Below are positions 16,182-30,038 of a stretch of 64,000 nt of DNA, piece by piece (positions within the stretch are counted from its first letter, which is position 1; every line of letters begins with the position of its first letter). The stretch is from Escherichia coli (GTDB lineage Bacteria; Pseudomonadota; Gammaproteobacteria; Enterobacterales; Enterobacteriaceae), in NCBI RefSeq assembly GCF_016903815.1, contig NZ_CP069973.1; one strand, given 5' to 3'. Below the pieces are notes generated by a model. The model did not search any database. It saw nothing but the letters and a program-made list of their open reading frames with translations, and was not told the origin of the DNA. The position numbers and the translations under genes are program-made.

Positions 16182-16182
16182 T

Positions 16183-17528: not shown

Positions 17529-17696
17529 ATGCACTTCCGAGTCACTGGTGAATGGAATGGAGAGCCATTCGACAGGGTTATAGAAGCAGAGGACATCAAC
17601 GACTGCTATAACCACTGGATGATATGGGCGCAGATAGCGCATGCAGACGTAACCAATATTCGAATTGAAGAACTGAAAGAACACCAAGACGCCTGA
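17529..17696 (+). CDS. Small hypothetical ORF (55 aa)
   Basis: TGGAGATGATAA-ATG. Translation MHFRVTGEWNGEPFDRVIEAEDINDCYNHWMIWAQIAHADVTNIRIEELKEHQDA. Followed by a short GC hairpin and T6 (17690-17711). Confidence 0.45.
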   Translation: MHFRVTGEWNGEPFDRVIEAEDINDCYNHWMIWAQIAHADVTNIRIEELKEHQDA

Positions 17697-17753
17697 TGGC
17701 GGTTTTTTATTGCCTGATTTGCAGGTTCGATTCCCTATTCGGAGATAGCACTC

Positions 17754-17954
17754 ATGCAACACGAACTACAGCCTGATTCACTGGTTGATTTGAAATTCAT
17801 CATGGCCGATACTGGCTTTGGTAAAACCTTCATCTATGACCGGATTAAGTCCGGCGACCTTCCTAAAGCCAAAGTTATCCACGGACGAGCAAGATGGTTA
17901 TATCGTGACCATTGTGAATTTAAAAATAAGCTCTTAAGCCGCGCCAATGGGTAA
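17754..17954 (+). CDS. torI: Excisionase / recombination directionality factor TorI (AlpA/MerR-type wHTH)
   Basis: 66 aa, MQHELQPDSLVDLKFIMADTGFGKTFIYDRIKSGDLPKAKVIHGRARWLYRDHCEFKNKLLSRANG, which I recall as KplE1 TorI. It lies at the prophage end next to the argW core, as in KplE1. Confidence 0.85.
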   Translation: MQHELQPDSLVDLKFIMADTGFGKTFIYDRIKSGDLPKAKVIHGRARWLYRDHCEFKNKLLSRANG

Positions 17955-18027
17955 AATAGCGGGTAAAATATTTCTCACATCTAAAAAACACCATTCCAAT
18001 CAATCCCCTGCCGCTTCAAGTAGATGT

Positions 18028-18043
18028 CTGCAGGGGACACCAT
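18028..18043 (+). repeat. att core: attR of the lambdoid prophage and attL of the adjacent island (argW 3' end)
   Basis: CTGCAGGGGACACCAT equals the last 15 nt of tRNA-Arg(CCU) argW plus T. The preceding sequence is not tRNA-like, so this is a partial copy. Confidence 0.85.
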
Positions 18044-18206
18044 CCCGCTGTACACCAACGTCTACCATTGTCTATAAATCCCATGTAAACATATAAAAAT
18101 AAAGAGATTTTATTCTCATGACGTCCATTTCCGTCTATTGAAATCAAGTAAATCTATGGGGCATAATTAGGGGCATTGCTGGTTCGATTGTATATGTGCC
18201 CCCAAC

Positions 18207-19493
18207 ATGTCCAGAAATACCCTCAACAAATTAACAGACCGTCAGTGCAAAGCAGCTAAGCCACGAGACAAAACTTATAAATTGTCTGATGGTGGTGGTC
18301 TTTATCTTGAAGTATCCCAGACCGGGTCGAAGTATTGGCGAATGAAGTATCGCCGCCCATCAGATAAGAAAGAAGACAGACTTGCTTTTGGTGTATATCC
18401 AACCATTAGCTTACAAGACGCCAGAGAAAAACGAGACAACGCCAAAAAGTTGTTAGTCAAGGGGATAGATCCCAAAGCAGAGCAAAGAGCAGCAAAAGCA
18501 GAAGAAAAAGGCGCATTCACTTTTGAGACAATAGGACGTCAATGGGTTGAAAGCCACCAGATGTGGAACGAAGACCACCGAAAACGCGTACTTAGAAGCC
18601 TTGAAATGTATATTTTCCCTCACATTGGCACTTCGGATATTCGCAAACTGGAGGCGATGACAATTTTACCTTTGTTTAAGAAGGTAGATGACGCCGGGAA
18701 ACACGATACAGCCAACCGACTTAAACAACGAGTTAAGGACATCATACATAGCGCCCGTCTGAGCGGCATTAAGACAGAAATCATCACGAATGATCTCGAT
18801 GTCCGGTTAATGCAATATGAAACTAAGCATCATGCCGCACTACATCCCAGAGATTTACCAGACTTTTTCACTCGATTGGGCAGCTTTAAAGGTAATCCTC
18901 TTACCCGCCTTGCCATTGAGCTAACCATGTTGACATTTGTTCGTTCAAGCGAGTTAAGGTTTGCCCGTTGGAAAGAGTTTGACCTTGATCGGGCTGAGTG
19001 GATTATCCCTAAAAAAAGAGAGCCTATCGATGGTGTGAGGTTTTCCACCCGTGGCACAAAAACGGGAAAAGACGAACATATCGTGCTTCTTAGCCGTCAG
19101 GCTGTTTCTATTGTAAAGCAGTTGAGAGAACTAAGCGGAAGCTACGATGTTGTGTTTCCGAATGAAAGAAACACCAAAGGCGTGATGAGTGAAAACACGG
19201 TAAACAAGGCATTACGCTTAATGGGCTATAACACGCAAGAGGACGTAACTGGACATGGATTCCGTGCCACAGCCTGTAGTTCCCTGATGGAGTCCGGTTT
19301 GTGGCAGGAGGACGCAGTAGAGCGCCAGATGAGCCACAAAGAATATAAAGACGTTAAAAGAGCCTACAAGCACAAGGCTGATTACTTAGAAGAGCGCAAA
19401 CTAATGCTTCAATGGTGGGCAGATTATCTGGACGCCAATCGAGAAATACATATAAGCCCTTACGAGTTCGGAAGGAGAACACGCCGTGACTAA
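18207..19493 (+). CDS. int: Tyrosine integrase, P4/IntS type (DUF4102 arm-binding N-domain)
   Basis: 428 aa. The N-terminus LTDRQCKAAKPRDKTYKLSDGGGLYLEV..GSKYWRMKYR, the catalytic region with HGFRATA, and the C-terminus YLEERKLMLQWWADYLD are all typical of P4-family integrases. Confidence 0.92.
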   Translation: MSRNTLNKLTDRQCKAAKPRDKTYKLSDGGGLYLEVSQTGSKYWRMKYRRPSDKKEDRLAFGVYPTISLQDAREKRDNAKKLLVKGIDPKAEQRAAKAEEKGAFTFETIGRQWVESHQMWNEDHRKRVLRSLEMYIFPHIGTSDIRKLEAMTILPLFKKVDDAGKHDTANRLKQRVKDIIHSARLSGIKTEIITNDLDVRLMQYETKHHAALHPRDLPDFFTRLGSFKGNPLTRLAIELTMLTFVRSSELRFARWKEFDLDRAEWIIPKKREPIDGVRFSTRGTKTGKDEHIVLLSRQAVSIVKQLRELSGSYDVVFPNERNTKGVMSENTVNKALRLMGYNTQEDVTGHGFRATACSSLMESGLWQEDAVERQMSHKEYKDVKRAYKHKADYLEERKLMLQWWADYLDANREIHISPYEFGRRTRRD

Positions 19494-20241
19494 GATGACA
19501 GGACTAGATGCGTTTTATAACGAGTCAGAAGATAAAATCTGGTTTGGTAATCTGATCAGCGAACTGGCAAGACTAAACAATGAAAATGAAAGAATGATCG
19601 CTGCCGCTATCTTAAGTAACTACAGATTGAGCAAAGCTAAACCAGATACTTTAGGGGGGCTGGGCTTTTATCAGTTCGATTGGGTATCAGGTTTTACAAC
19701 TAATGACGACTTTGAAAAGCAGTGTGTGGAGTTTTTAGGTCTTCTGGCTATGGGGCATGAATACAGGGAGAGCCCGATACCGGGGGAAGAAGGGACTTTC
19801 AACGTTAGGAAAGGGGAAGACTTTTTATATCACGATGATGAGGATGATTGGTATGGGTCTTACGATTCGTTTTATTTCAAGCGCTCCGAGGTTGTGAACT
19901 TCTTCCCAGAACTGGATATGAATGTTCCAGATAACGAACCAGAAATTGGAGCACTGTCAAAAAAAGTAGAAAGAGAACAAAACTGGAGAGGAAAAGATAC
20001 GGCTTTAAAGATGATCGCCGGAATGGCGATTGCCTTATTTGAATCAAGCAAAGATTTCCATAGTGGAGGAAACCTTAGTATCAATAGGGTTAGTGCCCAA
20101 GTAATAGAAAACAACATAATATTCGGGAACGATGAAGACAGCGATACCCACCCAGATACATTTCGGAGATTGCTAACGAACGCTTTGGATAAGTACGCCC
20201 CCAAATTTAAGAAAAAAGCAACCAAAAAGCGTCCAAAATAA
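19486..20241 (+). CDS. Hypothetical protein overlapping the int stop; Lys-rich C-terminal tail
   Basis: 251-aa ORF (GTG 19486 or ATG 19495) ending KFKKKATKKRPK. I recognise no family. Confidence 0.6.
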   Translation: MTKMTGLDAFYNESEDKIWFGNLISELARLNNENERMIAAAILSNYRLSKAKPDTLGGLGFYQFDWVSGFTTNDDFEKQCVEFLGLLAMGHEYRESPIPGEEGTFNVRKGEDFLYHDDEDDWYGSYDSFYFKRSEVVNFFPELDMNVPDNEPEIGALSKKVEREQNWRGKDTALKMIAGMAIALFESSKDFHSGGNLSINRVSAQVIENNIIFGNDEDSDTHPDTFRRLLTNALDKYAPKFKKKATKKRPK

Positions 20242-20397
20242 AGGAAGGATGTTCCCAAATTGTGCGTTAGAACTAAAAAATAACGCCCAATTTGGGGTAA
20301 TTCTATTCCCAAAAATTTTTTCTCCAAATTCACAGAAAACTTAAAAAAACAATGATTTACTATCTCACATAGTCAAGCAACGTATTACGAGGTAGAT

Positions 20398-20589
20398 ATG
20401 AAAAAGTCGCTGATTCGGCTATCTGAGGTTTTGAAACGCACTGGCTATAGCAAGGCGTGGGTATATGCTCTGATGAGCCGAGGACAATTCCCCCAATCAG
20501 TCAAGATTGGTGCTCGCGCAATAGCTTTTATTGAAAGCGAGATCGATGACTGGATCGATCAACGTATAGCCGAATCGCGTAGTAACTAA
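20398..20589 (+). CDS. AlpA-family transcriptional regulator / excisionase
   Basis: 63 aa. LIRLSEVLKRTGYSKAWVYALMSRGQFPQSVKIGARAIAFIESEIDDWI is the AlpA (HTH_17) pattern. Confidence 0.85.
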   Translation: MKKSLIRLSEVLKRTGYSKAWVYALMSRGQFPQSVKIGARAIAFIESEIDDWIDQRIAESRSN

Positions 20590-20637
20590 AGAACAGAAAC
20601 AAACAGGATACAAACAATACGTTATTAGGTATTAAGA

Positions 20638-20829
20638 ATGCAGTTGAAACCTACCAATCAAAAGCTGAACGTAACCCATGTTGATTTTGAAACCTTCGCG
20701 GCACTGATTAGATCAGAGCCACAAAAGGTGAGCACCAGCACCTGGGTTTATGATGTGAAATCCACCAGCGGTGGAAAAGCTATCGGCATTGCCTCTGGCG
20801 ATGATTACTTAGTAATAGATCTGATTTAA
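20638..20829 (+). CDS. Hypothetical protein
   Basis: 63-aa ORF on the same strand as the island's regulatory genes. Confidence 0.45.
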   Translation: MQLKPTNQKLNVTHVDFETFAALIRSEPQKVSTSTWVYDVKSTSGGKAIGIASGDDYLVIDLI

Positions 20830-20910
20830 TCGCACAAAAATTGTAGAGTAATTTGGGGAGACAGGAAGTCTCCTCCATATTACATTTTGGTACAACAGTA
20901 AGGGAATAAA

Positions 20911-21105
20911 ATGATTAATTACCTGACCGCTAAAGACGCAGCAGAATATCTTGGCGTCTGTCTGTCACGCTTCTATCAGTTAAAGCGATATATCCGAAGC
21001 TTTCCTCCCTATATAAATCAGACCATCAATGGACGCAAGCGCCGGGTGTGGCTTGCCTCCAGCCTTGATCAATTTGCCGACAGATTTCTGGGGGGACGAA
21101 AATGA
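20911..21105 (+). CDS. Small HTH DNA-binding protein (excisionase-family fold)
   Basis: 64 aa. LTAKDAAEYLGVCLSRFYQLKR is HTH-like. ATGA-coupled to the next ORF. Confidence 0.6.
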   Translation: MINYLTAKDAAEYLGVCLSRFYQLKRYIRSFPPYINQTINGRKRRVWLASSLDQFADRFLGGRK

Positions 21106-21488
21106 GCACTCTTACACGCTCTCAGGTCGCCGCGAATATACGCGATATCCTACTAAGTGGCAGGAAGCTTACCCCAAAAGAGTTTGACGACATATTAAGG
21201 AAAGCCGGAAATCACGAACGTAGTCGCGTTTTAACGCTGTTACGCAACGATTGGGGAATTCCTGTTGAGCAGTTTAAAACAGAGGCGTATCACGTCACAG
21301 AACGCAATTTAGAAGCATACCACAGCGATAAAGACGAAACATTGAAGATCTGGAGGACGAACGCCAGATATGTAAAGACATTGCGTAAGGTAAACATAAC
21401 GTTGTCGTTGTTGCGTGGGCTGGTGGGTAAAGTGCCTGAAGACACGCTTAGAACTGTTTACAAGGGTATTGAAACCAAATACCTGTGA
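21102..21488 (+). CDS. Hypothetical protein
   Basis: 128-aa ORF translationally coupled to the HTH gene and followed by the hairpin AAAGCCGACT...AGTCGGCTTT (21499-21527). Confidence 0.55.
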   Translation: MSTLTRSQVAANIRDILLSGRKLTPKEFDDILRKAGNHERSRVLTLLRNDWGIPVEQFKTEAYHVTERNLEAYHSDKDETLKIWRTNARYVKTLRKVNITLSLLRGLVGKVPEDTLRTVYKGIETKYL

Positions 21489-21556
21489 TTGACAAAGCAG
21501 AAAGCCGACTTTGCGAGAGTCGGCTTTGAAGCAATTGAAATATATGAACTTTACAC

Positions 21557-22609
21557 ATGGAATTATACGATAAAGACGCGAGTCTATCCACAAAATCACA
21601 AGCCGTAATCAATCACATCAATGGTCGCACATTAGCTTATGTGAGATCAGTTACGCACAAACGTAATGAATTAAAGGCGGAGAATAAACGCCAATCATCA
21701 AAGGCTAACCACTGCATACCACCAGCTTGGACAAAGAAGAAATGGCGTACAATGAGGCGAGCTTTGTTTACTCTGGATGTCGAATCAACTAGTGGTATCC
21801 CCTACTCCTTTACCTTCAGACCCGTTAAGGGAACAACGCCAGAGAAATTCAACAAAGCGTTAAAGGCACTTACCAGATGGTTGACTTCGAAAGGCAATCA
21901 GTGGGTTTACGTCATGGAGTGGGCTCAACACCAGTCAGAGCCGCATGTACACGCAATAATTATGGTGAACGAAAGAAGCATTAATGGGCAAGCAGGCAAA
22001 ATTGTCAGCAAATGGGTAACACTGGCAAACAATGCAATCCCATCAAATGTTCCTCCCCAGTGGGATCTAGATTTGAAAGGTCAGCAATATTCAGAGCCTA
22101 CAAGGTGTATAGGTAAACAGATTGATTACATGGCAAAACCCGAAACTAAGTTAAATGACTTTAATAGAGAGGCGAGCAAGAGCCTATATGATTGGTCAGA
22201 TGCCAACGTTTGGGGTTATTCGAATGGCTGGGCGCGGCATGAGATAAAAAAAGAAACACTTTCTATCACTGGCTTTCATGCTGTAAGACGCATACTAAAA
22301 GCCATTCAGGCATCAAGGAAAGACAACTACAAAGTTAAGCGACAGATACAGCGTACATTGAAACGACAAGACATAAATCGCTCACCAATCACCCCGTTCC
22401 AAGCACCGTTAATTAGCAAACACGATTGGGATTTATCAGTGATAGCGGTCACCAAAGAGGCAGAGACAGAGCGCAGGGAGTTACTATCCTCACAGACAAT
22501 AAACTCGAACAAAGTACAAACCCACCCGCTGTTAAGGATGTTAAGAAAAGCACGAGTGAGAGCATCCAGAGCCAGAAGAGAAAGCGGAGGTTATGACCAT
22601 TACTACTAG
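21557..22609 (+). CDS. Putative rolling-circle replication initiator, HUH endonuclease (inovirus Gp2-like)
   Basis: 350 aa with three ordered motifs: ALFTLDV (res 69-75), WVYVMEW...PHVHAIIMV (HUH, res 129-137) and IDYMAKP (Y-x-x-K, res 189-195). The C-terminus is basic. Confidence 0.65.
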   Translation: MELYDKDASLSTKSQAVINHINGRTLAYVRSVTHKRNELKAENKRQSSKANHCIPPAWTKKKWRTMRRALFTLDVESTSGIPYSFTFRPVKGTTPEKFNKALKALTRWLTSKGNQWVYVMEWAQHQSEPHVHAIIMVNERSINGQAGKIVSKWVTLANNAIPSNVPPQWDLDLKGQQYSEPTRCIGKQIDYMAKPETKLNDFNREASKSLYDWSDANVWGYSNGWARHEIKKETLSITGFHAVRRILKAIQASRKDNYKVKRQIQRTLKRQDINRSPITPFQAPLISKHDWDLSVIAVTKEAETERRELLSSQTINSNKVQTHPLLRMLRKARVRASRARRESGGYDHYY

Positions 22610-23252
22610 TAGTGACAGATCGTGACAAGGCAGAGCAAAAAACGACCAATATAAGAGAAATATCCCTGCCCAATCGCCAAAAGCGCGGAGCGCGGAGCGC
22701 GGCAAGCGCCGCGAGAGGCGCAAGAAGGCGAACCTATCCATTGAAACGGTCAGAAGAGCGCATCGCGCTCGATGACCGAAGTCCCCACTAACACCGTTAA
22801 CGAAAGATCAAAGTCTTAGAAAAAAATGACGTTTCTTTGAAGGGCTTCCATCCGTAAAAATCAAATTTTGAGATAAAGTACTTATAGAAATTAATCACTC
22901 TATAAGAGTGAGTTGACGTGAGTTTGAAGTGAGCAACATATTAAAAATATATATAATAATCAAACATATAATAACAACTACTGAGCAAAAATCACCAGAA
23001 AACAACGTCAACGTAACGTCACTCTGTAAGCACTTTTTCAGTCACTTTTTGGGTTGAATACACGTATAAATCCCCAACCATGAAATTTGAGCGCGTAAGC
23101 ACGACTCTGAAAGGCTTTTTATCTTTTAACCATTTAATATACCTGAGGTATTGAAGAAGATTCTGAGACATATACTAGAACTTTACCGTGCACGACTAAC
23201 AACATAAACGTTATATTTATATATAAATCAATGAGATAAATACATCCCCATC

Positions 23253-23284
23253 CAAAAAACAAGCATAACGCAAAATTGCGTTAT
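23253..23284 (-). terminator. Rho-independent terminator of the two-gene cargo operon
   Basis: The minus strand reads ATAACGCAA-TT-TTGCGTTAT followed by GCTTGTTTTTT, about 125 nt after the gene B stop. Confidence 0.7.
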
Positions 23285-23407
23285 CAACTTAAAAGGTACG
23301 ATTGAATCTGACAGTCTGCTCTGAGCGAAATGTGGGCACGTTCACCATAAGTCTCCAGATTGAAACGAAATGATAGTGTTAAATGTTCGATAGTTACTTT
23401 TCTAAGC

Positions 23408-24400
23408 TCAACGTTCGTAATAGTAATCCGACACCTCAGTAAAATCTATTTCCTCCCTAGAAAGTAATGATTCCATCTCATCTAGTTTATCGATTTGAGG
23501 CAAAACACTTGTTGGTGAAATCACAACATTAAAGTCCTCATTATATCGGTGACCTACCCTTGTGAGCTCTTTACCTAATTGCAACAATATATAATCACGT
23601 AAAATAAGTTGATTCCGTCTAAATCGAATAAGACGATAGTAATGGAAGAAATCAGAACATTTTGATGAATCATAATTTCTACCATTCCACCCGGTTTTCC
23701 TCGTAGCTCGGAATAATGCTTGCTCTTGCGTATTTTTCCAAATGCTAAAATCAAAGTGACTTTTCGGGTTAGGATTTTCGTATGTTGCTTGAGGATAAAA
23801 ATTAGTAACACCAAATTGATGCTTGTCAATGATCTTTAAAGTCCGATTTTGTTCAGACAACATCCGCCTTAAGGACCTAGGAATTTCGAAACGCATTAGT
23901 TTGTTTTTATCCAAGATTCTTAATTCTCTTGGAAGCATCTCATGATCCCGTTCTAAATATCTTTCACACCGTTTCGGCACATACTGAAAATACACTGAAA
24001 AAAAACAAAATATATTATCAGAAACGAGAGGAGTAATATGTATTTTTTCTTGCTCAGGAACGTTTTGAACAAAATAGTATGCCGTTCCTTGCCAAATCAA
24101 CGATTGCGCTACTGCCTCCACCAATTCACGTATTGTTTCATCTACCGAGTATTTCCTATATCTAGCTTGTAAATTTCCAAACATTTTACGTATGAGTTCT
24201 TCGTCGTTAGTTTCGACTTGAAACAAATTGGTATCACCGTGATTTACAAAATTAAAAACTCTAGCAAAATCCTCATAAAACATCCTTTGATAGAAACCTG
24301 GTCGTTCATTCTTAGACTTGGTCAATAGTCTATCAACAAAACTTAATTGCTCAGGATCGACGCTATAACCGTAAAGGGGTATATTCTTGATAATTTTCAT
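23408..24400 (-). CDS. Cargo gene B: 330-aa soluble protein of unknown function
   Basis: Long AT-rich ORF, ATGA-overlapped with gene A. No TM segment and no catalytic or DNA-binding motif that I can recognise. Confidence 0.85.
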   Translation of the reverse strand: MKIIKNIPLYGYSVDPEQLSFVDRLLTKSKNERPGFYQRMFYEDFARVFNFVNHGDTNLFQVETNDEELIRKMFGNLQARYRKYSVDETIRELVEAVAQSLIWQGTAYYFVQNVPEQEKIHITPLVSDNIFCFFSVYFQYVPKRCERYLERDHEMLPRELRILDKNKLMRFEIPRSLRRMLSEQNRTLKIIDKHQFGVTNFYPQATYENPNPKSHFDFSIWKNTQEQALFRATRKTGWNGRNYDSSKCSDFFHYYRLIRFRRNQLILRDYILLQLGKELTRVGHRYNEDFNVVISPTSVLPQIDKLDEMESLLSREEIDFTEVSDYYYER

Positions 24401-26862
24401 TCAAAATCCTTATCGTATTCCACGCCAAAACGACGAGCCAACTCACTAACATGGTAATCGATCTTGAAGTCAATTTGCTCGAGTTGCGGGAAAATTTCGA
24501 GAGCACAAAAGAGATGCGATGCATCTGAATGGGAGTTTAAGAACTCTCTGACAACTTTGTTCGTATGAGATTTCCCTCGATTCATTCCCATTTGATCGCT
24601 AAAGCCATCATGTCTTGCGCGGCGCTCAAATTCCATTTTCCAGTTAAGACGAATCATATCTCTCGGTGATGCGCACAAGCTGAAATTGCGCGGATTTGAA
24701 AGAATCATCATTCTCTTCAAATACTGCTGTTTGTTGGGAACAGACTCGAGCCAAGACTTAAACCTATCAAGTACTGTTTTAGATAGTTTTGCATTATCGA
24801 AATAAGCACTGTAAAGGATAGCAAAACCTAGAACTGACATCAGATCGTTGATCGCGGATGAAAGGAGATGCAGTCGAAACTCGTTGTTTATATCGAGTTT
24901 CGGATCTACAAATTTGGTATCTGATGCCAGCAATGAGAGAACCATGAACATAGGGAATACCTTGCTCAGTTTATTTTCATCATTCTGTTCAAGCGCATGT
25001 ATACATTCCTCAGCCAACTCAAAATATATCTGTCCAAAATGATCCGGTAGTTCATCATCTTGCTCTTGTTCAATGATATGTCCCACAATTTCCACCCTAC
25101 CAAGAATAGCTATAGCTTCATCCTGTGTAACGACAAACTGTTTGAGCATTTCAGCAATATTAATTTCTGGTAATGCGTATAGCTTTTCAGAGTAGTGCTC
25201 GTACTTTCTGTATCTCTCCAAGAGCAGAGAAAGTTCATTAAACCAATGGGGAAACTTCAAATGATTATGTAGGCTAGCGAGAACGACTTGCGTTGCGGCT
25301 TCCGGCATCTTCATGTTTATCAGTGAGTTAACGAAATCTGGAACCATGTTTACGTGAAAATCGCATACTTCTGGCAGAATTTTAGAATATTGTTGTAATA
25401 ACTTCTGAACCGCCAACTGCTGGACGTACTTTGGTTTGGATAATCTCTGTCCTTCAATCTCTTTTTCGAATTCGATACGTTCTACGATAAAGGCCAACTC
25501 AACCTGCAGAAAAGCAGGCAAAGTGTGTAGAGAGGTCTCTGTCCAGATATCATCTTTAAAGAACTGCTCCAATTCTTTCTCAAAAGTAATCATGCGGCGT
25601 AACATTTCAAGGCAAAGATTGCTGCCTAATGCAGCCCATGCATCCGCAATTCCAACTTTTATCACCTTTTCCTCAAAATAATTAACGACATCAGACGGTG
25701 TAAAGGCTTTTTCAATGATCGTCTTCATTTTCCGAAGTTCACGTATACCAATATCGAACTGAAACTGTTGTGCATAAGTTAATATACGAGATGAGAATAG
25801 ACTGATGAGATCCAACCCGAGCTTGAAATCACCGGCTTTGAATGCAAGTTCAATATGGCCTACCAACCTATTGATAATTTCATTCTCTAACCAAAGATAA
25901 TTTGGTTCTTCTTCAACCGTTAATTGGCTCCTTGTTTTTAAAGCAATGGATGTTACACTGTCGCCAGCTAAGAACCATTGCTTATGTTTTATTCGTCTAG
26001 GGAACCAGTAACTTTGATAATCAATTCTGTGTTTCTGATTAAGGTAATGAAGAAGTAATGCCGAATAAACATTACTGAGAGCAGGTAAATTATCTCCGAG
26101 TCCTACTTTTTCACATATCAGGCGATCATCAATGTAGTTTAACTGCTCAAAGGCCAAATGTGCGGCTTTAGAGTGATGATTAGCTAAAGATACTGAATTC
26201 TTGGGATTAGACGCACCTTCGATGTGTCGTGCAATTCGTGGGAGTATTTCACTTCGGGCTAACTGATTTAGGTCAAAAAAATTGAATAATCTTTGACCTA
26301 ATGGGAACAGAGCTAAGGAACTAACAAGTGTCAGCAATGTTCCCATTGCATAAACGAAAAGACCGGGTTCAACCCCGAACAAGTGGAGAGCAGTTGCACT
26401 AAGACAAAACACCGCAGAAAGCACTAAAGTCCGCGAATACACATTACCTACCTGCTCGGTAGTAAGCATTTGTATAATATCTCGCCGAAGTCTGGTATAT
26501 CCTGTACTTAGAATGATACCTATTGTAGCAAAGTATATTGAAAATATAGCGGTAAGTATCTGTGCGTACAACCTAAGTTGATCAATATTAAATTTTTTTT
26601 CATCATAGCTAAGAGGATGAAGCAAAATCGTATTATTCCGAATATAATCTTCAACAAAACCCAGTGCAAATAACGTTAATATGACCCATAACAAATTTTT
26701 TAAACCTACCAACGCAAAAGACATAAAAACATGAGCGTTAGACTTAGCTTTAAAAACAGACGTACGATGTATGTATGACGCACGTTCTAAAATAAATCTA
26801 ACCCTCACAAGATCTGTTCTTAATTTCCAGAACCACTTTTGAGAAATAAGCCAAACCTTCAT
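24397..26862 (-). CDS. Cargo gene A: 821-aa membrane protein (4 predicted TM + ~630-aa helical cytoplasmic domain) of unknown function
   Basis: 2.46-kb ORF (ATG 26862; the track uses TTG 26874). Hydrophobic segments at about res 50-75, 107-127, 150-169 and 173-194, with a basic loop TRLRRD between TM2 and TM3. I recognise no domain. Confidence 0.85.
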   Translation of the reverse strand: MKVWLISQKWFWKLRTDLVRVRFILERASYIHRTSVFKAKSNAHVFMSFALVGLKNLLWVILTLFALGFVEDYIRNNTILLHPLSYDEKKFNIDQLRLYAQILTAIFSIYFATIGIILSTGYTRLRRDIIQMLTTEQVGNVYSRTLVLSAVFCLSATALHLFGVEPGLFVYAMGTLLTLVSSLALFPLGQRLFNFFDLNQLARSEILPRIARHIEGASNPKNSVSLANHHSKAAHLAFEQLNYIDDRLICEKVGLGDNLPALSNVYSALLLHYLNQKHRIDYQSYWFPRRIKHKQWFLAGDSVTSIALKTRSQLTVEEEPNYLWLENEIINRLVGHIELAFKAGDFKLGLDLISLFSSRILTYAQQFQFDIGIRELRKMKTIIEKAFTPSDVVNYFEEKVIKVGIADAWAALGSNLCLEMLRRMITFEKELEQFFKDDIWTETSLHTLPAFLQVELAFIVERIEFEKEIEGQRLSKPKYVQQLAVQKLLQQYSKILPEVCDFHVNMVPDFVNSLINMKMPEAATQVVLASLHNHLKFPHWFNELSLLLERYRKYEHYSEKLYALPEINIAEMLKQFVVTQDEAIAILGRVEIVGHIIEQEQDDELPDHFGQIYFELAEECIHALEQNDENKLSKVFPMFMVLSLLASDTKFVDPKLDINNEFRLHLLSSAINDLMSVLGFAILYSAYFDNAKLSKTVLDRFKSWLESVPNKQQYLKRMMILSNPRNFSLCASPRDMIRLNWKMEFERRARHDGFSDQMGMNRGKSHTNKVVREFLNSHSDASHLFCALEIFPQLEQIDFKIDYHVSELARRFGVEYDKDFE

Positions 26863-26973
26863 TATATCAATCAAGTGATACCTGCCTTCTCATCTCTACA
26901 TGCAACATAAAAATGCTTACTATGGTGGCAAACAAAATCAAGAATCATATGTTTGAACACTTTTTACGCACGA

Positions 26974-27002
26974 ATTATCCGGTGTAAGATACTTATAGTC
27001 AA
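26974..27002 (-). promoter_or_regulatory. Candidate sigma70 promoter of the cargo operon
   Basis: The minus strand reads TTGACT-N17-GATAAT, about 110 nt upstream of the gene A ATG. Confidence 0.4.
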
Positions 27003-27050
27003 ATGGCAGGGCTAATCTCATCTGTATTGAGCTATTAACAGCCATATGTA

Positions 27051-27082
27051 AGACTAAGAAACGCGCCCAGCAAAGGCGCGTT
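27051..27082 (-). terminator. Terminator after the 58-aa ORF
   Basis: The minus strand reads AACGCGCC-TTTGCTG-GGCGCGTT followed by TCTTAGTCTT. Confidence 0.55.
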
Positions 27083-27087
27083 CTGCA

Positions 27088-27264
27088 TCAGGTAAGTTTG
27101 CTGGGGTCTACGGTTTCCATCCAATCTGGAGCAATTCCCAAACGTTCCGCTATCTCTTCGTTGGTCATGTCTTCAGTTGAGAAATTAGCCAGAGAATCGT
27201 TAACTTCAGGATAGTCAGGGGAGAGTAACAGGTATTCCCGCAACGCTTTCAGATCTTTTTCCAT
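27088..27264 (-). CDS. Small acidic ORF (58 aa), divergent from the recombinase gene
   Basis: GGAGCGTTAAA-ATG RBS. Translation MEKDLKALREYLLLSPDYPEVNDSLANFSTEDMTNEEIAERLGIAPDWMETVDPSKLT. Has its own terminator. Below the ORF-track cutoff. Confidence 0.55.
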   Translation of the reverse strand: MEKDLKALREYLLLSPDYPEVNDSLANFSTEDMTNEEIAERLGIAPDWMETVDPSKLT

Positions 27265-27435
27265 TTTAACGCTCCTTGTTTATTGACAGTCGAACGATGG
27301 TGAAGATTCTTGCCATCTCAAGTACAGGCAAGAAAATCCACCAGAACACCAAATTATCTCATAAGGTTAAATCGGTGTCGGGCTATTTCTTTCGGCTAGG
27401 TGAGTGTACCGCCTTAACCACCGGCAATTATCATT

Positions 27436-27560
27436 GTCTCAATTGGGTATACCGTAATGACAAGGTGATACAAAGTCTCAATAGGGTTGTATAGGAACAT
27501 TTTGACTACACAAAATGCATTATGTATCATTTGCACTTATATTCACAACCCTATTGAGAC
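27436..27560. promoter_or_regulatory. res-like recombinase binding region overlapping the recombinase promoter
   Basis: Three copies of (T/A)GTCTCAAT(T/A)GGGT: 27436-27448 (+), 27475-27490 (+) and 27545-27560 (-). The last two form a perfect 16-bp inverted repeat. TTGACT-N17-TATCAT (27502-27530) lies between them. The total span of ~125 bp is similar to Tn3-type res. Confidence 0.55.
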
Positions 27561-27566
27561 AATGCA

Positions 27567-28193
27567 ATGAACGTTAGAATTTACTGCCGAGCATCAACTG
27601 AGGGGCAACACGCTGATCGAGCACTTACCAGCCTACGTGAATTTTCAAAATCAAAAGGCTGGCAGATTGCAGGAGAGTATATAGAAAATGCTAGCGGGGC
27701 GAAGCTTGAGCGCGTAGAGCTTATGCGGCTATTGTCTGAAGCCCAGTCCGGCGATCTGTTGCTAGTGGAAGCTATAGATCGTCTGAGTCGCCTAGAACAT
27801 AGCGCATGGGTCGAACTGAAAGATACGCTCAACCGAAAAGGGTTAATCATCGTATCAATGGATTTACCAACGAGCTGGCAGATGGTCGAGATGGCAGGCA
27901 ATGACCTAACCAGCGGCATCCTGAGAGCCGTAAATGCCATGTTGATTGATATCCTTGCCACAATGGCACGGCAGGATTACGAAACACGTCGTAAACGCCA
28001 ACAGCAAGGCATTGAGCGAGCTAAAAGCGAAGGAATATACATTGGCAGGGAGAAAAATCAGGAAGCCCGAGAGATCGTTAGAGAGATGTTGGAGCAAGGA
28101 GTAAAACCTGAACTCATCATGAAGGCAGCAGGAATCAGCCGAGCGACTTACTACCGTATAAAAAGTGAGCTGTCAGTCGTAAAATCAGAATAA
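27567..28193 (+). CDS. Small serine recombinase (resolvase/invertase family, C-terminal HTH)
   Basis: 208 aa. VRIYCRASTEGQ (catalytic Ser), LLVEAIDRLSR, and the C-terminal HTH AAGISRATYYRIK. Confidence 0.9.
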   Translation: MNVRIYCRASTEGQHADRALTSLREFSKSKGWQIAGEYIENASGAKLERVELMRLLSEAQSGDLLLVEAIDRLSRLEHSAWVELKDTLNRKGLIIVSMDLPTSWQMVEMAGNDLTSGILRAVNAMLIDILATMARQDYETRRKRQQQGIERAKSEGIYIGREKNQEAREIVREMLEQGVKPELIMKAAGISRATYYRIKSELSVVKSE

Positions 28194-28327
28194 CCTTTGA
28201 AAGGTCGTCAGGCTTGTTTCATCTGCTAAAAGCCAGCATTTCTGACCATAATACCTGGGGGCACCTACTGGGGCACCCACCAAAATCGAAAGACAAATAA
28301 GTTATAATTCAATCTGTTAGTTTACTT

Positions 28328-28350
28328 TTCGATTCCTGCAGGGGACACCA
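28328..28350 (+). repeat. Right-end att: 23-nt copy of the argW 3' end (pawZ-like tRNA-Arg pseudogene fragment)
   Basis: TTCGATTCCTGCAGGGGACACCA equals the T-loop through CCA of argW as recalled. There is no upstream tRNA body. Confidence 0.85.
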
Positions 28351-28790
28351 GATACCCTTCAAACCAAATCTACCTTCACCCCGTAAAAGATGGGTTTGGC
28401 GCACACTAGCCCTATATCTACTCATTTTTACTGCAACAGGTTGAAATCTCAGCACTGTCAGAAAGCGCTGATGACTAAACAGCCCTGGGCCGGGCGATGT
28501 AACCATCATACAGAATCCTGATAGCGAAATATGGCGTGACTCGATACTTCACTCTGCAATGCATTCCTTGATGAATTCGCAGGCCCGTGATACTCGGGAC
28601 AGGTCGCTGAATGACGACAATGTCCTGGAAATCAGCGAACCGCGTATCCGGAGTACATTTGAGCGACTGTACCAGAACATGAATGAGGCGTTTGGATTAG
28701 GTGATTATTAGTTGGGCTAAGCATTTTTGTATTATTATTTTCCGGTTGAGGGATATGGAGATATCGACAACAACCGGAAAAAGTTTACGT

Positions 28791-30038
28791 CTATATTGCT
28801 GAAGGTACAGGCGTTTCCATAACTATTTGCTCGCGTTTTTTACTCAGGAAGAAAATGCCAAATAGCAACATCAGGCAGACAATACCCGAAATTGCGAAGA
28901 AAACTGTCTGGTAGCCTGCGTGGTCAAAGAGTATCCCAGTCGGCGTTGAAAGCAGCACAATCCCAAGCGAACTGGCAATTTGAAAACCAATCAGAAAGAT
29001 CGTCGACGACAGGCGCTTATCAAAGTTTGCCACGCTGTATTTGAAGACGGATATGACACAAAGTGGAACCTCAATGGCATGTAACAGCTTCACTAATGAA
29101 ATAATCCAGGGGTTAACGAACAACGCGCAGGAAAGGATACGCAACGCCATAATCACAACACCGATAAGTAATGCATTTTTTGGCCCTACCCGATTCACAA
29201 AGAAAGGAATAATCGCCATGCACAGCGCTTCGAGTACCACCTGGAATGAGTTGAGATAACCATACAGGCGCGTTCCTACATCGTGTGATTCGAATAAACC
29301 TGCATAAAAGACAGGAAAGAGTTGTTGATCAAAAATGTTATAGAAAGACCACGTCCCCACAATAAATATGACGAAAACCCAGAAGTTTCGATCCTTGAAA
29401 ACTGCGATAAAATCCTCTTTTTTTACCCCTCCCGCATCCGCCGCTATGCACTGGTGATCCTTATCTTTAAAACGCATGTTGATCATCATAAATACAGCGC
29501 CAAATAGCGAGACCAACCAGAAGTTGATATGGGGACTGATACTAAAAAATATACCGGCAAAGAACGCGCCAATAGCATAGCCAAAAGATCCCCAGGCGCG
29601 CGCTGTTCCATATTCGAAATGAAAATTTCGCGCCATTTTTTCGGTGAAGCTGTCAAGCAAACCGCATCCCGCCAGATACCCCAGGCCAAAAAAGAGCGCC
29701 CCCAGAATTAGACCTACAGAAAAATTGCTTTGCAGTAACGGTTCATAAACGTAAATCATAAACGGTCCGGTCAAGACCAGAATGAAACTCATACACCAGA
29801 TGAGCGGTTTCTTCAGACCGAGTTTATCCTGAACGATGCCGTAGAACATCATAAATAGAATGCTGGTAAACTGGTTGACCGAATAAAGTGTACCTAATTC
29901 CGTCCCTGTTAATCCTAGATGTCCTTTCAGCCAAATAGCGTATAACGACCACCACAGCGACCAGGAAATAAAAAAGAGAAATGAGTAACTGGATGCAAAA
30001 CGATAGTACGCATTTCTGAATGGAATATTCAGTGCCAT
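28791..30038 (-). CDS. cscB: Sucrose:H+ symporter CscB (MFS, LacY-like)
   Basis: 415 aa, MALNIPFRNAYYRFASSYSFLFFISWSLWWSLYAIWLKG... recognised as CscB. Confidence 0.95.
   Translation of the reverse strand: MALNIPFRNAYYRFASSYSFLFFISWSLWWSLYAIWLKGHLGLTGTELGTLYSVNQFTSILFMMFYGIVQDKLGLKKPLIWCMSFILVLTGPFMIYVYEPLLQSNFSVGLILGALFFGLGYLAGCGLLDSFTEKMARNFHFEYGTARAWGSFGYAIGAFFAGIFFSISPHINFWLVSLFGAVFMMINMRFKDKDHQCIAADAGGVKKEDFIAVFKDRNFWVFVIFIVGTWSFYNIFDQQLFPVFYAGLFESHDVGTRLYGYLNSFQVVLEALCMAIIPFFVNRVGPKNALLIGVVIMALRILSCALFVNPWIISLVKLLHAIEVPLCVISVFKYSVANFDKRLSSTIFLIGFQIASSLGIVLLSTPTGILFDHAGYQTVFFAISGIVCLMLLFGIFFLSKKREQIVMETPVPSAI

What the first reader, a model, noticed from the sequence alone, without database searches (positions are those of the whole stretch)
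18028..28350. 10.3-kb integrative element bounded by argW-core direct repeats, inserted in tandem with the lambdoid prophage
Seen in the sequence: CTGCAGGGGACACCA occurs at 18028-18042 and 28336-28350 in the same orientation. The right copy extends to 23 nt of argW identity (TTCGATTCCTGCAGGGGACACCA). A P4-type integrase starts 164 bp after the left core, close to my recollection of the argW-intS spacing in K-12 (~160 bp). The content is int, a 251-aa unknown, AlpA, two small HTH/unknown genes, an HUH Rep, the AT-rich cargo operon and a serine recombinase. I see no capsid, terminase or lysis genes. Inference: this is a small satellite- or IME-like element that shares the att site, and possibly excision or packaging functions, with the neighbouring prophage.
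Basis: partly seen in the sequence, partly recalled or inferred. Interest (0 to 1): 0.65.

Follow-up and report, generated by a model that had tools for sequence, protein, structure and literature searches.

The report
Small defence-carrying island at argW
This is a real, self-contained 10.3-kb mobile island that inserts into the E. coli tRNA gene argW with its own integrase. Here it sits behind an unrelated P22-like prophage that uses the same site. The island type is ordinary, but it carries an uncharacterised two-gene cargo, probably anti-phage, one protein of which is predicted to fold like a phage portal.

Summary
CTGCAGGGGACACCA occurs only at 18028-18042 and 28336-28350, and the right copy shares 23 nt with argW. 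Comparative genomics shows a discrete island. E. coli genomes exist with an empty argW-csc site, with the island alone at argW (about 200), with prophage then island (35) and with island then prophage (4). All breakpoints fall at the repeats.

The island has its own P4/IntS-family integrase (32% identical to the prophage's IntS). It also has AlpA, an HUH rolling-circle Rep, a conserved non-coding block (candidate origin) and a small serine resolvase with res-like repeats. Relatives occur at argW in E. albertii, Klebsiella and Citrobacter.

Between the origin block and the resolvase lies a variable cargo slot. Sister islands carry GAPS6 (validated anti-phage), a restriction-like gene, a ParA-family gene or an HNH gene there. 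This window carries an 825-aa membrane-anchored helical-repeat protein and a 330-aa protein with a predicted portal-like fold. This pair is a conserved, widely transferred module found next to defence genes on other mobile elements.

The satellite idea (dependence on the neighbouring prophage) is not supported. The island is a new member of a known kind. The cargo is the interesting part.

The parts
18028..18042 (+). Left att core. It is a hybrid site: the prophage attR arm (torI side) lies to its left and the island's int-proximal arm to its right. In island-only genomes this position is the 3' end of intact argW.
   Evidence: AR_0015 (L002) and KMi012 (L006) have the full argW here, followed by the same island sequence tcccgctgtacacc.
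18043..18206 (+). Int-proximal att arm and integrase upstream region. It contains a promoter-like site at 18138-18167.
   Evidence: The sequence is identical in island-only genomes. A promoter overlapping attL is inferred by analogy with KplE1 intS (PMC2951348).
18207..19493 (+). Tyrosine integrase, 428 aa, P4/IntS type (Arm-DNA-bind_3, Phage_int_M and Phage_integrase domains).
   Evidence: Pfam E 7e-29, 1e-18 and 8e-17. PHROG 1 integrase. 32% identity to the prophage IntS over residues 9-413. 428-aa orthologues in Klebsiella and a near-full-length match in Citrobacter.
19486..20241 (+). 251-aa backbone protein of unknown function. Its start overlaps the end of int. The region 19919-20344 differs between island variants.
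   Evidence: No Pfam, PHROG, PADLOC, NCBIfam or PDB match. Conserved position in Klebsiella, 246 aa. Variable patch shown.
20398..20589 (+). AlpA-family small DNA-binding protein, 63 aa. Predicted excision activator or recombination directionality factor.
   Evidence: Pfam Phage_AlpA E 3.6e-18. PHROG excisionase/transcriptional regulator. 100% identical in E. albertii and Citrobacter islands.
20638..20829 (+). 63-aa conserved backbone ORF of unknown function.
   Evidence: Conserved in Klebsiella, Citrobacter and E. albertii.
20911..21105 (+). 64-aa HTH_17 (MerR/excisionase-like) protein.
   Evidence: Pfam HTH_17 E 5.6e-5, below the gathering score. Weak TIGR01764 'excise' hit. RefSeq names it 'MerR family' or 'DNA-binding protein'.
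21102..21488 (+). 128-aa conserved backbone ORF of unknown function.
21557..22609 (+). HUH rolling-circle Rep, 350 aa.
   Evidence: Pfam REP_ORF2-G2P, E 7.6e-7 and 29.8 bits against a cutoff of 27.8. HVHAII and IDYMAK motifs, invariant in the family alignment. 24-29% identity to ORFs on 5-15 kb Klebsiella plasmids. No phage hits.
22610..23124 (.). Conserved non-coding block after rep. It has a GC-rich repeat, GTGAG iteron-like repeats, an AT-rich stretch and the hairpin CACTCT-ata-AGAGTG (22895-22911). It is a candidate replication origin or nick site.
   Evidence: Conserved to 23072-23124 in E. coli variants and partly in Klebsiella. Folds better than shuffles, z = -3.1. Sequence. The function is inferred.
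23125..27056 (.). Variable cargo slot. It is replaced by unrelated genes in sister islands.
   Evidence: Boundaries from blastn against L005, L014, L015, L016 and L023. Alternative cargoes: GapS6a/b, a 470-aa hypothetical, ParA-family, DpnII/MboI-like, HNH_2.
24397..26874 (-). Cargo gene 1, 825 aa (RefSeq aa from the ATG at 26862). It has four N-terminal hydrophobic segments followed by a large alpha-helical repeat domain.
23408..24400 (-). Cargo gene 2, 330 aa, with a predicted phage-portal-like fold. Its start overlaps the stop of gene 1 (ATGA).
27088..27264 (-). 58-aa ORF of unknown function, followed by a terminator-like hairpin (27083-27059). Diverged alleles are present in most variants.
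27432..27564 (.). Three copies of a TGTCTCAAT(A/T)GGGT motif (27432-27448 +, 27475-27490 +, 27545-27564 -) around a promoter-like site, ending 3 nt before the recombinase ATG. They are a candidate res or operator site.
   Evidence: The region is 94-99% conserved in all variants. The function is inferred from the layout of Tn3/gamma-delta res-tnpR (general knowledge).
27567..28193 (+). Small serine recombinase (resolvase/invertase family), 208 aa.
   Evidence: Pfam Resolvase E 2e-23. Full-length similarity to Bin3 (Tn552), gamma-delta and Tn3 resolvases. Catalytic-type N-terminus YCRASTEGQ.
28328..28350 (+). Right att repeat: 23 nt identical to the argW 3' end (TTCGATTCCTGCAGGGGACACCA). It marks the island/chromosome junction.
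   Evidence: Empty-site genomes align from exactly 28328 with tRNA-Arg annotated. KMi012 has a different right flank (dsdC) starting exactly after 28350.

Best explanation
Window 18043-28350 is one copy of a small integrative genomic island family of Enterobacteriaceae. The island targets the 3' end of tRNA-Arg(CCU) argW.

**Integration (shown).** The island carries 23 nt of argW identity in its attP, so insertion regenerates argW on the left and leaves a 23-nt repeat on the right. The island occurs alone, and its breakpoints are exact.

**Recombination proteins (inferred).** Recombination is catalysed by the island's own P4/IntS-family tyrosine integrase. AlpA acts as excision activator or directionality factor.

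**Tandem array (shown).** In this strain a P22-like prophage with its own IntS/TorI module occupies argW in front of the island. It uses the same 15-16-nt core. The site at 18028 is therefore a hybrid of the prophage's right arm and the island's left arm. The opposite order also exists in other genomes.

**Life after excision (inferred).** The circular form is replicated by the HUH Rep acting on the conserved non-coding block next to it. Multimers are resolved by the serine resolvase at the res-like repeats.

**Cargo (slot variability shown, function inferred).** The segment between the origin block and the resolvase is an exchangeable cargo slot that carries anti-phage or anti-MGE genes. Here the slot holds a conserved two-gene module: a membrane-anchored helical-repeat protein and a portal-fold protein. 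I predict this module is an uncharacterised defence system.

**Transfer between cells (unknown).** No relaxase, MPF or packaging genes are recognisable. My guess is passive transfer by generalised transduction, or conjugative mobilisation with Rep acting as relaxase. Horizontal spread itself is supported.
For: **Repeats and att anatomy**
-.

**Configurations with exact breakpoints**
- Empty argW-csc site in SE11, and most csc-positive genomes start at window 28328.
- Island alone between argW and csc in AR_0015, and between argW and dsdC in KMi012.
- Three different prophages upstream of the same island.
- Reverse order in E. albertii and in 4 E. coli genomes.
- Counts: 200 copies joined directly to argW, 35 prophage-then-island, 4 island-then-prophage.

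**Separate machineries**
- The prophage has its own intS next to argW.
- The island Int is 32% identical to IntS.

**Horizontal transfer**
- The island is 99.9% identical between AR_0015 and KMi012, while the adjacent mlaA-yfdC flank differs by 1.4%.
- The island's left 3.5 kb is 91.6% identical between E. coli and Klebsiella or Citrobacter, while the flank is 76-80% identical.
- The same backbone sits at argW in Klebsiella and Citrobacter.

**Backbone functions**
- Pfam, PHROG and PDB assignments.
- HUH and Y motifs are invariant.
- Conserved non-coding block and res-like repeats.

**Cargo slot**
- GAPS6 sits in the same slot of a 97-99% identical backbone. GAPS6 is validated as anti-phage (bioRxiv 10.1101/2023.03.28.534373).
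- Other cargoes.

**Cargo module elsewhere**
- It sits at the ends of mobile elements, in four of five places next to toxin-antitoxin or defence-type genes. Neighbours include RnlAB, RelE/MqsA, an Avs-like nSTAND3 with AbiGi, and HNH_2. In Hyphococcus it lies beside a large-serine-recombinase element.
- Natural fusion of the two proteins.

**Known hotspot**
- argW is catalogued as a defence hotspot.
Against: - No excised or circular (attP) junction was found in 5,426 complete E. coli genomes or in JGI metagenome contigs. Activity of Int and AlpA is therefore untested.
- In several genomes rep is interrupted by an IS element. About 330 genomes (O157:H7, O55:H7 and others) keep only a truncated relic. 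Many copies may be decaying.
- The Rep-origin and resolvase-res roles rest on layout and motifs only.
- The left att site in this tandem copy shares only 15-16 nt with the right one, not 23. This could reduce excision of this particular copy.
- The cargo has no hit in PADLOC 2023, Pfam or NCBIfam 2026. Its defence role is guilt by association.
- The portal-like fold comes from medium-confidence models.
Confidence: 0.75

Rival explanations
1. Phage satellite (PICI-, PICMI- or P4-like). The island would be induced by, and packaged into capsids of, the adjacent IntS/TorI P22-like prophage or a similar helper. The portal-fold protein would serve in capsid hijacking.
For: - Small size, int plus AlpA, and no structural genes by sequence.
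- Tandem position with a pac-type P22-like prophage that shares the core.
- A portal-like fold in the cargo.
- Precedent for excisionase crosstalk between an argW P22-like phage (Kapi1) and AlpA-type proteins of other elements (PMC11773190).
Against: - About 84% of copies have no adjacent prophage. Co-occurrence (about 16%) is below the share of all genomes that match the argW-intS query (about 38%).
- No DNA is shared with the prophage apart from the core.
- There is no primase-helicase, terS, rpp, ppi, sid, psu or delta homologue.
- The portal-fold gene lies in the exchangeable slot and is absent from sister islands. It occurs in unrelated elements with an obligatory membrane-protein partner and has no homologue in 50,697 phage genomes.
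- AlpA and TorI are only 32% identical over 38 residues.
Confidence: 0.1
2. Integrative mobilisable element. After excision, the HUH protein would act as a relaxase at an oriT in the conserved block, and the island would be transferred by a co-resident conjugative plasmid or ICE.
For: - HUH/Y endonuclease with a weak MobA/VirD2 relaxase-domain hit, E 0.0055.
- Conserved hairpin-containing block beside the gene.
- Spread across genera.
- General knowledge: rolling-circle Reps can double as relaxases.
- Many genomic islands are proposed to hitch on conjugative elements (bioRxiv 10.64898/2026.01.13.699239).
Against: - The relaxase hit is below Pfam's cutoff (17.4 against 24.6 bits). The best family match is a replication protein family.
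- The nearest relatives outside islands are on small plasmids that MOB-suite types as non-mobilisable.
- No coupling-protein or MPF gene is present.
- No copy is found on any plasmid among 554 matching E. coli records.
Confidence: 0.2
3. Fixed, no longer mobile remnant. The block would be an old insertion that is now inherited vertically and moved only by homologous recombination of flanking DNA. The repeats would be fossils.
For: - No attP junction was detected.
- IS insertions in rep and large truncations occur in many genomes.
- There is always one copy, always at argW.
Against: - All backbone ORFs are intact here, and they are conserved in length across genera.
- The repeats are perfect.
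- The island is far less diverged than its flanks, both within E. coli and between genera.
- The same island lies next to different right flanks (csc or dsdC), with the junction exactly at the repeat.
- A Klebsiella-type copy has a different downstream flank.
Confidence: 0.1

Closest known systems
KplE1 (CPS-53) / HK620 / Sf6 / CUS-3 IntS-TorI recombination module at argW
   Same: - Same target gene and the same 15-16-nt core, CTGCAGGGGACACCA(T).
- The integrase gene sits about 160 nt downstream of the tRNA in the same orientation.
- Both integrases belong to the Arm-DNA-bind_3 (P4/IntS) family.
   Different: - The island Int is only 32% identical to IntS.
- The directionality-factor candidate is an AlpA protein placed 0.9 kb downstream of int, not a TorI at the opposite end.
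- The island's identity with argW is 23 nt, not 16.
- The element is not a phage. The neighbouring prophage in the window is the true member of this group.
P4-integrase/AlpA islands such as CP4-57 and P4-like satellites
   Same: A tRNA-targeting P4-type integrase plus an AlpA-family regulator. That AlpA activates excision is general knowledge from CP4-57.
   Different: There is no P4 alpha primase-helicase and no sid, psu, delta, epsilon or cos. Replication instead relies on an HUH rolling-circle Rep.
Gram-negative PICIs (e.g. EcCICFT073, EcCIMP1) and Vibrio PICMIs
   Same: Size about 10 kb, int plus alpA, and no virion genes recognisable by sequence. They can carry defence cargo.
   Different: - No primase/rep of the PICI type and no packaging-redirection genes.
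- No association with a helper prophage.
- EcCIMP1 is a different element, 20 kb at tRNA-Thr with a primase.
'Integrase-only' or unclassified defence-carrying islands at E. coli hotspots (Hochhauser et al. 2023, PMC10121019); hotspot #11 dsdC-yfdC / tRNA-Arg(CCT)
   Same: - Same locus. It is listed as occupied in 973 of the genomes analysed, 376 of them with known defence systems.
- Same concept: a small integrase-bearing island with variable defence cargo and an unclear transfer route.
   Different: That survey did not dissect this family in its main text. Here the backbone (int, alpA, HUH rep, origin block, resolvase/res) and the exact cargo slot are defined.
SGI1/MGI-type integrative mobilisable islands (int, xis, rep, resolvase backbones)
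   Same: A tyrosine integrase, a small excisionase-type protein, a replication gene and a resolvase on an integrative island. This comparison rests on my recollection, not on a test here.
   Different: SGI1-type islands are larger, carry tra and mobilisation genes and oriT, integrate at trmE, and have unrelated Rep proteins. No such genes are present here.
Small rolling-circle plasmids of Klebsiella and Enterobacter with a related HUH Rep
   Same: Rep family (24-29% identity), including the HUH and Y motifs.
   Different: Those are free 5-15 kb plasmids. This Rep is only found inside argW islands, in Escherichia, Klebsiella and Citrobacter.
Tailed-phage and GTA portal proteins (compared with the 330-aa cargo protein)
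   Different: - No sequence similarity.
- It is shorter than most portals, at 330 aa.
- It is never found in a virion gene cluster and has no homologue in sequenced phages.
- It is always paired or fused with a membrane-anchored helical-repeat protein.

Membership tests
tRNA-integrating genomic island with tyrosine integrase | Direct repeats derived from the 3' end of the target tRNA gene at both ends | tested here: met
   A 15-nt exact repeat in the window. In island-only genomes the repeat is 23 nt against intact argW.
tRNA-integrating genomic island with tyrosine integrase | Intact integrase gene adjacent to the tRNA-proximal end | tested here: met
   428 aa with three integrase domains. 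It is full length against IntS and against orthologues.
tRNA-integrating genomic island with tyrosine integrase | Presence/absence polymorphism with breakpoints exactly at the repeats | tested here: met
   Empty site, island alone, and both tandem orders are all observed.
tRNA-integrating genomic island with tyrosine integrase | Demonstrable excision and integration | not testable with these tools
   Only indirect evidence is available. No attP junction was found in assemblies.
PICI (phage-inducible chromosomal island, Gram-negative type) | int plus alpA master regulator | tested here: met
PICI (phage-inducible chromosomal island, Gram-negative type) | Primase/replicase (pri-rep) module | tested here: not met
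   The only replication gene is an HUH Rep of the REP_ORF2-G2P type. No primase or helicase domain is present.
PICI (phage-inducible chromosomal island, Gram-negative type) | Packaging or capsid-interference genes (terS, rpp, ppi, cpm or a capsid module) | tested here: not met
   No Pfam or PHROG hit of that kind. The portal-fold protein is exchangeable cargo, not backbone.
PICI (phage-inducible chromosomal island, Gram-negative type) | Induction and transfer by a helper phage | not testable with these tools
   Co-occurrence with the adjacent prophage type is not enriched.
P4-like satellite | alpha primase-helicase, sid, psu, delta, cos | tested here: not met
   No matches in Pfam or PHROGs.
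Integrative mobilisable element (IME) | Relaxase and/or oriT recognised by a conjugative helper | tested here: inconclusive
   The HUH protein has a sub-threshold Relaxase hit, 17.4 against 24.6 bits. A candidate hairpin block exists. No known oriT could be tested.
KplE1/HK620/Sf6 IntS-TorI module | IntS-type integrase and TorI RDF at opposite prophage ends, with the 16-nt core | tested here: not met
   This holds for the island: Int is 32% identical to IntS, and AlpA is not TorI. The neighbouring prophage does meet the criteria.
Small serine recombinase (resolvase/invertase) | N-terminal catalytic domain with Ser nucleophile plus C-terminal HTH, about 180-210 aa | tested here: met
   Pfam Resolvase E 2e-23 and a sub-threshold HTH_7 hit. 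Full-length match to Bin3, gamma-delta and Tn3 resolvases. YCRASTEGQ motif.
HUH rolling-circle initiator | HUH metal-binding motif and catalytic Tyr motif | tested here: met
   EPHVHAII and IDYMAK, invariant in 5 family members. The Pfam REP_ORF2-G2P hit is above its cutoff.
Known anti-phage defence systems (PADLOC 2023, NCBIfam 2026) | Profile match of the cargo proteins | tested here: not met
   No hits for the 825-aa or the 330-aa protein.
Phage portal protein family | Portal fold | tested here: inconclusive
Phage portal protein family | Encoded in a head-morphogenesis cluster next to terminase; forms a dodecameric ring at a capsid vertex | tested here: not met
   The genomic context is never a virion cluster, and there is no homologue in phage genomes. 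The oligomeric state was not tested.

The most novel reading that the evidence does not exclude
The cargo operon (23408-26874, minus strand) may be a previously undescribed, widely transferred defence system. In this reading, a portal-fold protein works with, and in some bacteria is fused to, a membrane-anchored helical-repeat protein.

One possible mechanism is that the portal mimic captures or senses phage packaging or assembly proteins, such as terminase, scaffold or capsid. The membrane partner would then execute exclusion or abortive infection.

The argW island would be one of several vehicles that spread the system.
Probability: 0.35. Interest if true: 0.75.

Novelty: new member of a known kind. 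Interest (0 to 1): 0.5.

Why it matters
**The island.** It is a clean, small example of the 'integrase-bearing defence islands with unknown transfer route' that fill E. coli hotspots.
- It has exact ends.
- It has a defined backbone: int, alpA, HUH rep, origin block, resolvase/res.
- It has a single well-delimited cargo slot that already holds one validated system (GAPS6) in a sister copy.

These properties make it a practical scaffold for finding new defence genes. They also make it suitable for testing how such minimal islands move.

**The tandem arrays.** Arrays occur in both orders with IntS/TorI prophages. Some relics are fused into prophages. This shows how elements that compete for one att site recombine and hand cargo to one another.

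**The cargo.** The cargo in this window is uncharacterised. It is conserved at more than 50-60% identity across Proteobacteria, and its portal-like fold would be unusual for a cellular or defence protein.

Tried and rejected
- **Circular or tandem junction.** I built a synthetic attP junction (right end joined to left end). No full-length match was found in 5,426 E. coli genomes. There was no exact match in JGI metagenome contigs. This is uninformative rather than negative evidence.
- **RNA families.** An Rfam scan of 17500-28900 gave only chance-level hits.
- **Shared pac, cos or regulatory DNA.** None was found between the island and the prophage.
- **Second resolvase site.** The 15-nt near-repeat at 20077 and 27474 is at the frequency expected by chance (my estimate), so I dropped it.
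- **Literature.** Searches with RefSeq accessions of the island proteins found nothing. Searches for portal-like defence proteins found nothing relevant.
- **EcCIMP1.** This PICI, mobilised by the argW phage Kapi1, was checked as a possible match. It is a different element.
- **Reading the 10.3 kb as part of the prophage.** I rejected this because the block occurs without any prophage.

Full report
**1. Observation**

The 15-mer CTGCAGGGGACACCA occurs exactly twice in the 64-kb window, at 18028-18042 and 28336-28350, on the same strand. No further site appears even with two mismatches, against 0.06 expected by chance. Start-to-start spacing is 10,308 bp.

The window contains no tRNA gene. It is 100% identical to E. 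coli strain 2779 (NZ_CP103521.1), so I read argW from that record and from other genomes. The right copy is preceded by TTCGATTC, which gives 23 nt of identity with the argW 3' end. The left copy shares only the 15-mer, or 16 nt if the following T is counted. That 16-mer is the published KplE1 core CTGCAGGGGACACCAT.

The integrase ORF starts 164 nt after the left core. The cargo is AT-rich: 37.4% GC against 43-45% in the backbone and about 47% in the flanks.

**2. Context in this strain**

The order in the strain is as follows:
- yfdC, argW and intS;
- a P22-like prophage of about 39.5 kb (tailspike, ejection proteins, gp5-type coat, portal, terminase, lysis, Q, cI/cro, N, recT, and torI at 17754-17954);
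- the core at 18028;
- the 10.3-kb block;
- the 23-nt repeat;
- a DUF4942 gene fragment, cscB, cscK, cscA, cscR, dsdX' and dsdA.

The prophage therefore has its own IntS next to argW and TorI at its far end. This is the KplE1/HK620/Sf6 arrangement described in PMC2951348. Its early region is lambdoid, but its virion genes are P22-like.

**3. The block is a discrete element**

- **Empty site.** In SE11, and in most of the 2,699 genomes that share the csc flank, argW is followed directly by the sequence that starts at window 28351. Alignments begin exactly at 28328, with tRNA-Arg annotated there.
- **Island alone.** In AR_0015, intact argW is followed by the island, which is 100% identical over 10,293 nt, and then by csc.
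- **Same island, different right flank.** In KMi012 the island lies between argW and dsdC. The junction falls exactly after the repeat.
- **Different prophages in front of the same island.** These are a CPS-53-like prophage in ECSD228, another lambdoid prophage in Nord122, and the P22-like one here.
- **Reverse order.** The island is followed by an IntS prophage in E. albertii NBRC 107761 and in 4 E. coli genomes.

Among 5,426 complete E. coli genomes, counts are as follows:
- 220 carry at least 80% of the backbone, always as a single chromosomal copy.
- 200 have argW joined directly to the island's left end.
- 35 have the torI arm joined to the island's left end.
- 4 have the island's right end joined to the intS arm.

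About 38% of all genomes match the argW-intS query. The island is therefore not enriched next to such prophages.

**4. att anatomy**

- attB (SE11) reads …GGTTCGATTCCTGCAGGGGACACCA|gataccc.
- In island-only genomes, attL is argW followed by tcccgctgtac….
- attR is …gtttacttTTCGATTCCTGCAGGGGACACCA|gataccc.

The island's attP thus carries 23 nt of argW, and integration regenerates the tRNA gene.

In the window, the site at 18028 has the prophage's torI-side arm on its left (…caagtagatgt) and the island's int-side arm on its right. It is a hybrid created by two independent integrations into the same core. Because its left half is phage DNA, this copy's two att sites share 15-16 nt rather than 23 nt. 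I infer that this could lower the island's own excision efficiency in this strain.

A Klebsiella-type copy on a Logan contig has the right repeat …GGGGACAC|TTttgag, followed by a different downstream flank. This indicates an independent integration.

**5. Backbone**

- **Int (18207-19493).** It has Arm-DNA-bind_3, Phage_int_M and Phage_integrase domains. It aligns over residues 9-413 with the prophage IntS at 32% identity. The two are related but clearly distinct enzymes that converge on one core.
- **AlpA (20398-20589).** This is a strong Phage_AlpA match. It is only 32% identical to TorI over 38 residues.
- **Rep (21557-22609).** It matches REP_ORF2-G2P above the Pfam cutoff. Its HUH (EPHVHAII) and Tyr (IDYMAK) motifs are invariant in the family. 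It has no relatives in 50,697 phage genomes. It is 24-29% identical to ORFs of 5-15 kb Klebsiella and Enterobacter plasmids. Close relatives exist only in Escherichia, Klebsiella and Citrobacter.
- **Non-coding block (22610-23124).** It is conserved among variants. It contains a GC-rich repeat, GTGAG iteron-like repeats, an AT-rich stretch and a hairpin, and it folds better than shuffles, z = -3.1. I take it as the candidate origin. This is an inference.
- **Resolvase (27567-28193).** It is a small serine recombinase with full-length similarity to Bin3/Sin-type, gamma-delta and Tn3 resolvases. Three copies of a TGTCTCAAT(A/T)GGGT motif and a promoter-like site lie directly upstream. This is the usual res-tnpR layout (general knowledge). 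I infer multimer resolution and autoregulation.

The 251-, 63-, 64- and 128-aa ORFs are conserved in position but remain unassigned.

**6. Family and horizontal transfer**

Klebsiella pneumoniae has the same gene order at yfdC-argW: int 428, a 246-aa ORF, AlpA, 63-, 64- and 128-aa ORFs, Rep 347, cargo, a small minus-strand ORF and resolvase 208. Citrobacter sp. Awk 4 has the same order from int to Rep at its tRNA-Arg(CCU); the contig ends soon after Rep.

The left 3.5 kb is 91.6% identical between E. coli and these genera. The adjacent mlaA-yfdC flank is only 76-80% identical.

Within E. coli, the island differs by 0.09% between AR_0015 and KMi012, while the flank differs by 1.4%.

Both comparisons indicate horizontal movement. 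I found no direct trace of the excised form.

**7. Cargo slot**

Sensitive alignment places the variable segment at about 23125-27056. The same slot in sister islands holds the following:
- GapS6a/GapS6b in TB4019, on a 97-99% identical backbone. GAPS6 reduced plating of several phages by 2-4 orders of magnitude in bioRxiv 10.1101/2023.03.28.534373.
- A 470-aa hypothetical protein in JNE131328 and in the O157:H7 relic.
- A ParA-family protein.
- A DpnII/MboI-like protein plus a 232-aa ORF.
- In Klebsiella, an HNH_2 protein with two small ORFs.

The dsdC-yfdC/tRNA-Arg(CCT) locus is hotspot #11 in the supplementary table of PMC10121019. It is listed as occupied in 973 genomes, 376 of them with known defence systems. 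That paper also notes integrase-bearing defence islands whose means of transfer is unclear.

**8. The cargo in this window**

Two translationally coupled genes on the minus strand encode an 825-aa protein and a 330-aa protein. Neither matches Pfam, PADLOC (2023), PHROGs, NCBIfam (June 2026) or PDB sequences.

Both have hundreds of homologues at 52-74% identity, on shared contigs, in Enterobacterales, Vibrio, Nitrosomonas, Halomonas, Alteromonas and alphaproteobacteria, among others.

- **The 825-aa protein.** It has four N-terminal hydrophobic segments. It has a confidently modelled alpha-helical repeat domain that gives only generic structural hits.
- **Family size and fusion.** A profile search finds 611 cluster representatives, almost all 290-350 aa long. 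One 1,145-aa protein is a fusion of both families. This argues that the two proteins work together physically.

In five other genomes the pair sits at the edge of a mobile element.
- **Serratia:** between icd with an HNH_2 gene and a prophage integrase.
- **V. cholerae:** at a prophage end next to RnlAB.
- **Pectobacterium:** at the end of an Int/AlpA island next to RelE/MqsA.
- **Proteus:** between icd' repeats, next to an Mrr_cat-nSTAND3 protein and AbiGi.
- **Hyphococcus:** beside a large-serine-recombinase element.

My interpretation is that this is an uncharacterised defence or anti-MGE module. Any portal-mimic mechanism is speculation.

**9. Is it a satellite?**

Several points favour the idea: small size, int plus alpA, the tandem position, the portal-fold gene, and published excisionase crosstalk involving the argW phage Kapi1 (PMC11773190).

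The points against are stronger.
- Most copies have no adjacent prophage, and co-occurrence is not enriched.
- No DNA is shared with the prophage.
- There is no primase and no packaging or redirection gene.
- The portal-fold gene is exchangeable cargo.

I therefore rate the satellite reading at about 0.1. Conjugative mobilisation with Rep acting as relaxase remains open, at about 0.2. The Relaxase hit is sub-threshold, at 17.4 bits against a cutoff of 24.6.

**10. Decay and recombination with prophages**

- In several genomes rep is split by an IS element such as IS2 or ISEc23.
- About 330 genomes, including O157:H7 and O55:H7, retain only Rep' (the C-terminal 215 aa), a cargo gene and the resolvase. 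This relic is fused to a P22-like remnant at a tail-needle gene.
- In E. coli CP027593 a rep'-cargo-resolvase segment lies inside a lambdoid prophage, directly upstream of an identical torI.

Tandem residence at argW thus leads to chimeras that move island cargo into prophages.

**11. Verdict**

The 'satellite sharing functions with the prophage' part is not supported.

The island is a new, well-delimited member of a known kind: a tRNA-targeting, integrase-bearing defence island at a catalogued hotspot. Its cargo is uncharacterised and structurally unusual.

Noticed in passing
window 17716-17740: This is a third argW-derived fragment. TTGCAGGTTCGATTCC (16 nt identical to the argW T-arm) lies directly upstream of the torI start codon, then diverges (ctattcgg against tgcagggg). 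It may be a relic of an older att site inside the prophage's torI arm.
   Followed up: partly
L013 (E. coli CP027593) 10001-16031: A truncated island segment (Rep', a DpnII/MboI-like gene plus a 232-aa cargo ORF, and the resolvase) is embedded in a lambdoid prophage. It lies between the ea22/DUF551 region and a torI that is 100% identical to the one in the window. The junction reads …ttcgattcctgcagggg|agatagcactcATG. This is a prophage-island chimera.
   Followed up: partly
L005 (O157:H7 TW14359) 12690-16938; about 330 E. coli genomes: The O157:H7/O55:H7 lineage keeps only the C-terminal 215 codons of rep, a different 470-aa cargo gene, the small ORF and the resolvase. This relic is fused to a P22-like remnant at a tail-needle gene. 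PHROG 30534 is built from this Rep fragment. No right-hand core within 2 mismatches was found there.
   Followed up: partly
L006 6250-7478; hits H23, H27, H28, H95: Several genomes have an IS element inserted in the island. In KMi012 and FDAARGOS_1281 (IS2) and MRSN346638 (ISEc23) it lies in or near rep. For the ISSen4 and IS5 cases (H28, H23) the position within the island was not determined. This suggests decay, or selection against a functional Rep.
   Followed up: no
window 28559-28711: A 50-aa DUF4942 gene fragment lies between the island's right repeat and cscB. It is also present in empty-site genomes, so the csc flank itself looks like the remnant of an older argW-associated element.
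   Followed up: no
L008 9176-10404 (same strain, left of the window): The P22-like prophage carries an IS2 copy between the gp10-like head-completion gene and an HNH endonuclease gene. The prophage may therefore be defective in this strain.
   Followed up: no
window 19919-20344: The 3' part of the 251-aa ORF and the spacer before alpA form a second variable patch. They are not alignable in the JNE131328 and 'capsule mutant 3' islands, although both sides are 95-99% identical.
   Followed up: no
L009/L012 (Klebsiella) 11327-12766 against window 22797-23074: In Klebsiella islands the cargo genes sit immediately after rep, upstream of the conserved non-coding block. In E. coli they sit downstream of it. 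The backbone therefore has two insertion positions.
   Followed up: no
P0353 (1,145 aa, metagenomic representative): This is a natural fusion of the 825-aa family (residues 2-789, hhalign probability 99.8%) and the 330-aa family (residues 854-1139).
   Followed up: yes
L021 (Proteus mirabilis) 1-10405: The cargo pair, with a 147-aa ORF, is flanked by repeated icd 3' fragments. It lies in an array that also holds an Mrr_cat-nSTAND3 (Avs-like) gene and AbiGi, next to an e14-type prophage integrase. This is a tandem array of mini-islands at icd.
   Followed up: no
L023 (E. albertii NBRC 107761) 9292-9320: The island's 23-nt right repeat is followed by the intS-side prophage arm (tttatcagttcgc…). 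This is the reverse tandem order to the window. The same junction occurs in 4 complete E. coli genomes.
   Followed up: yes
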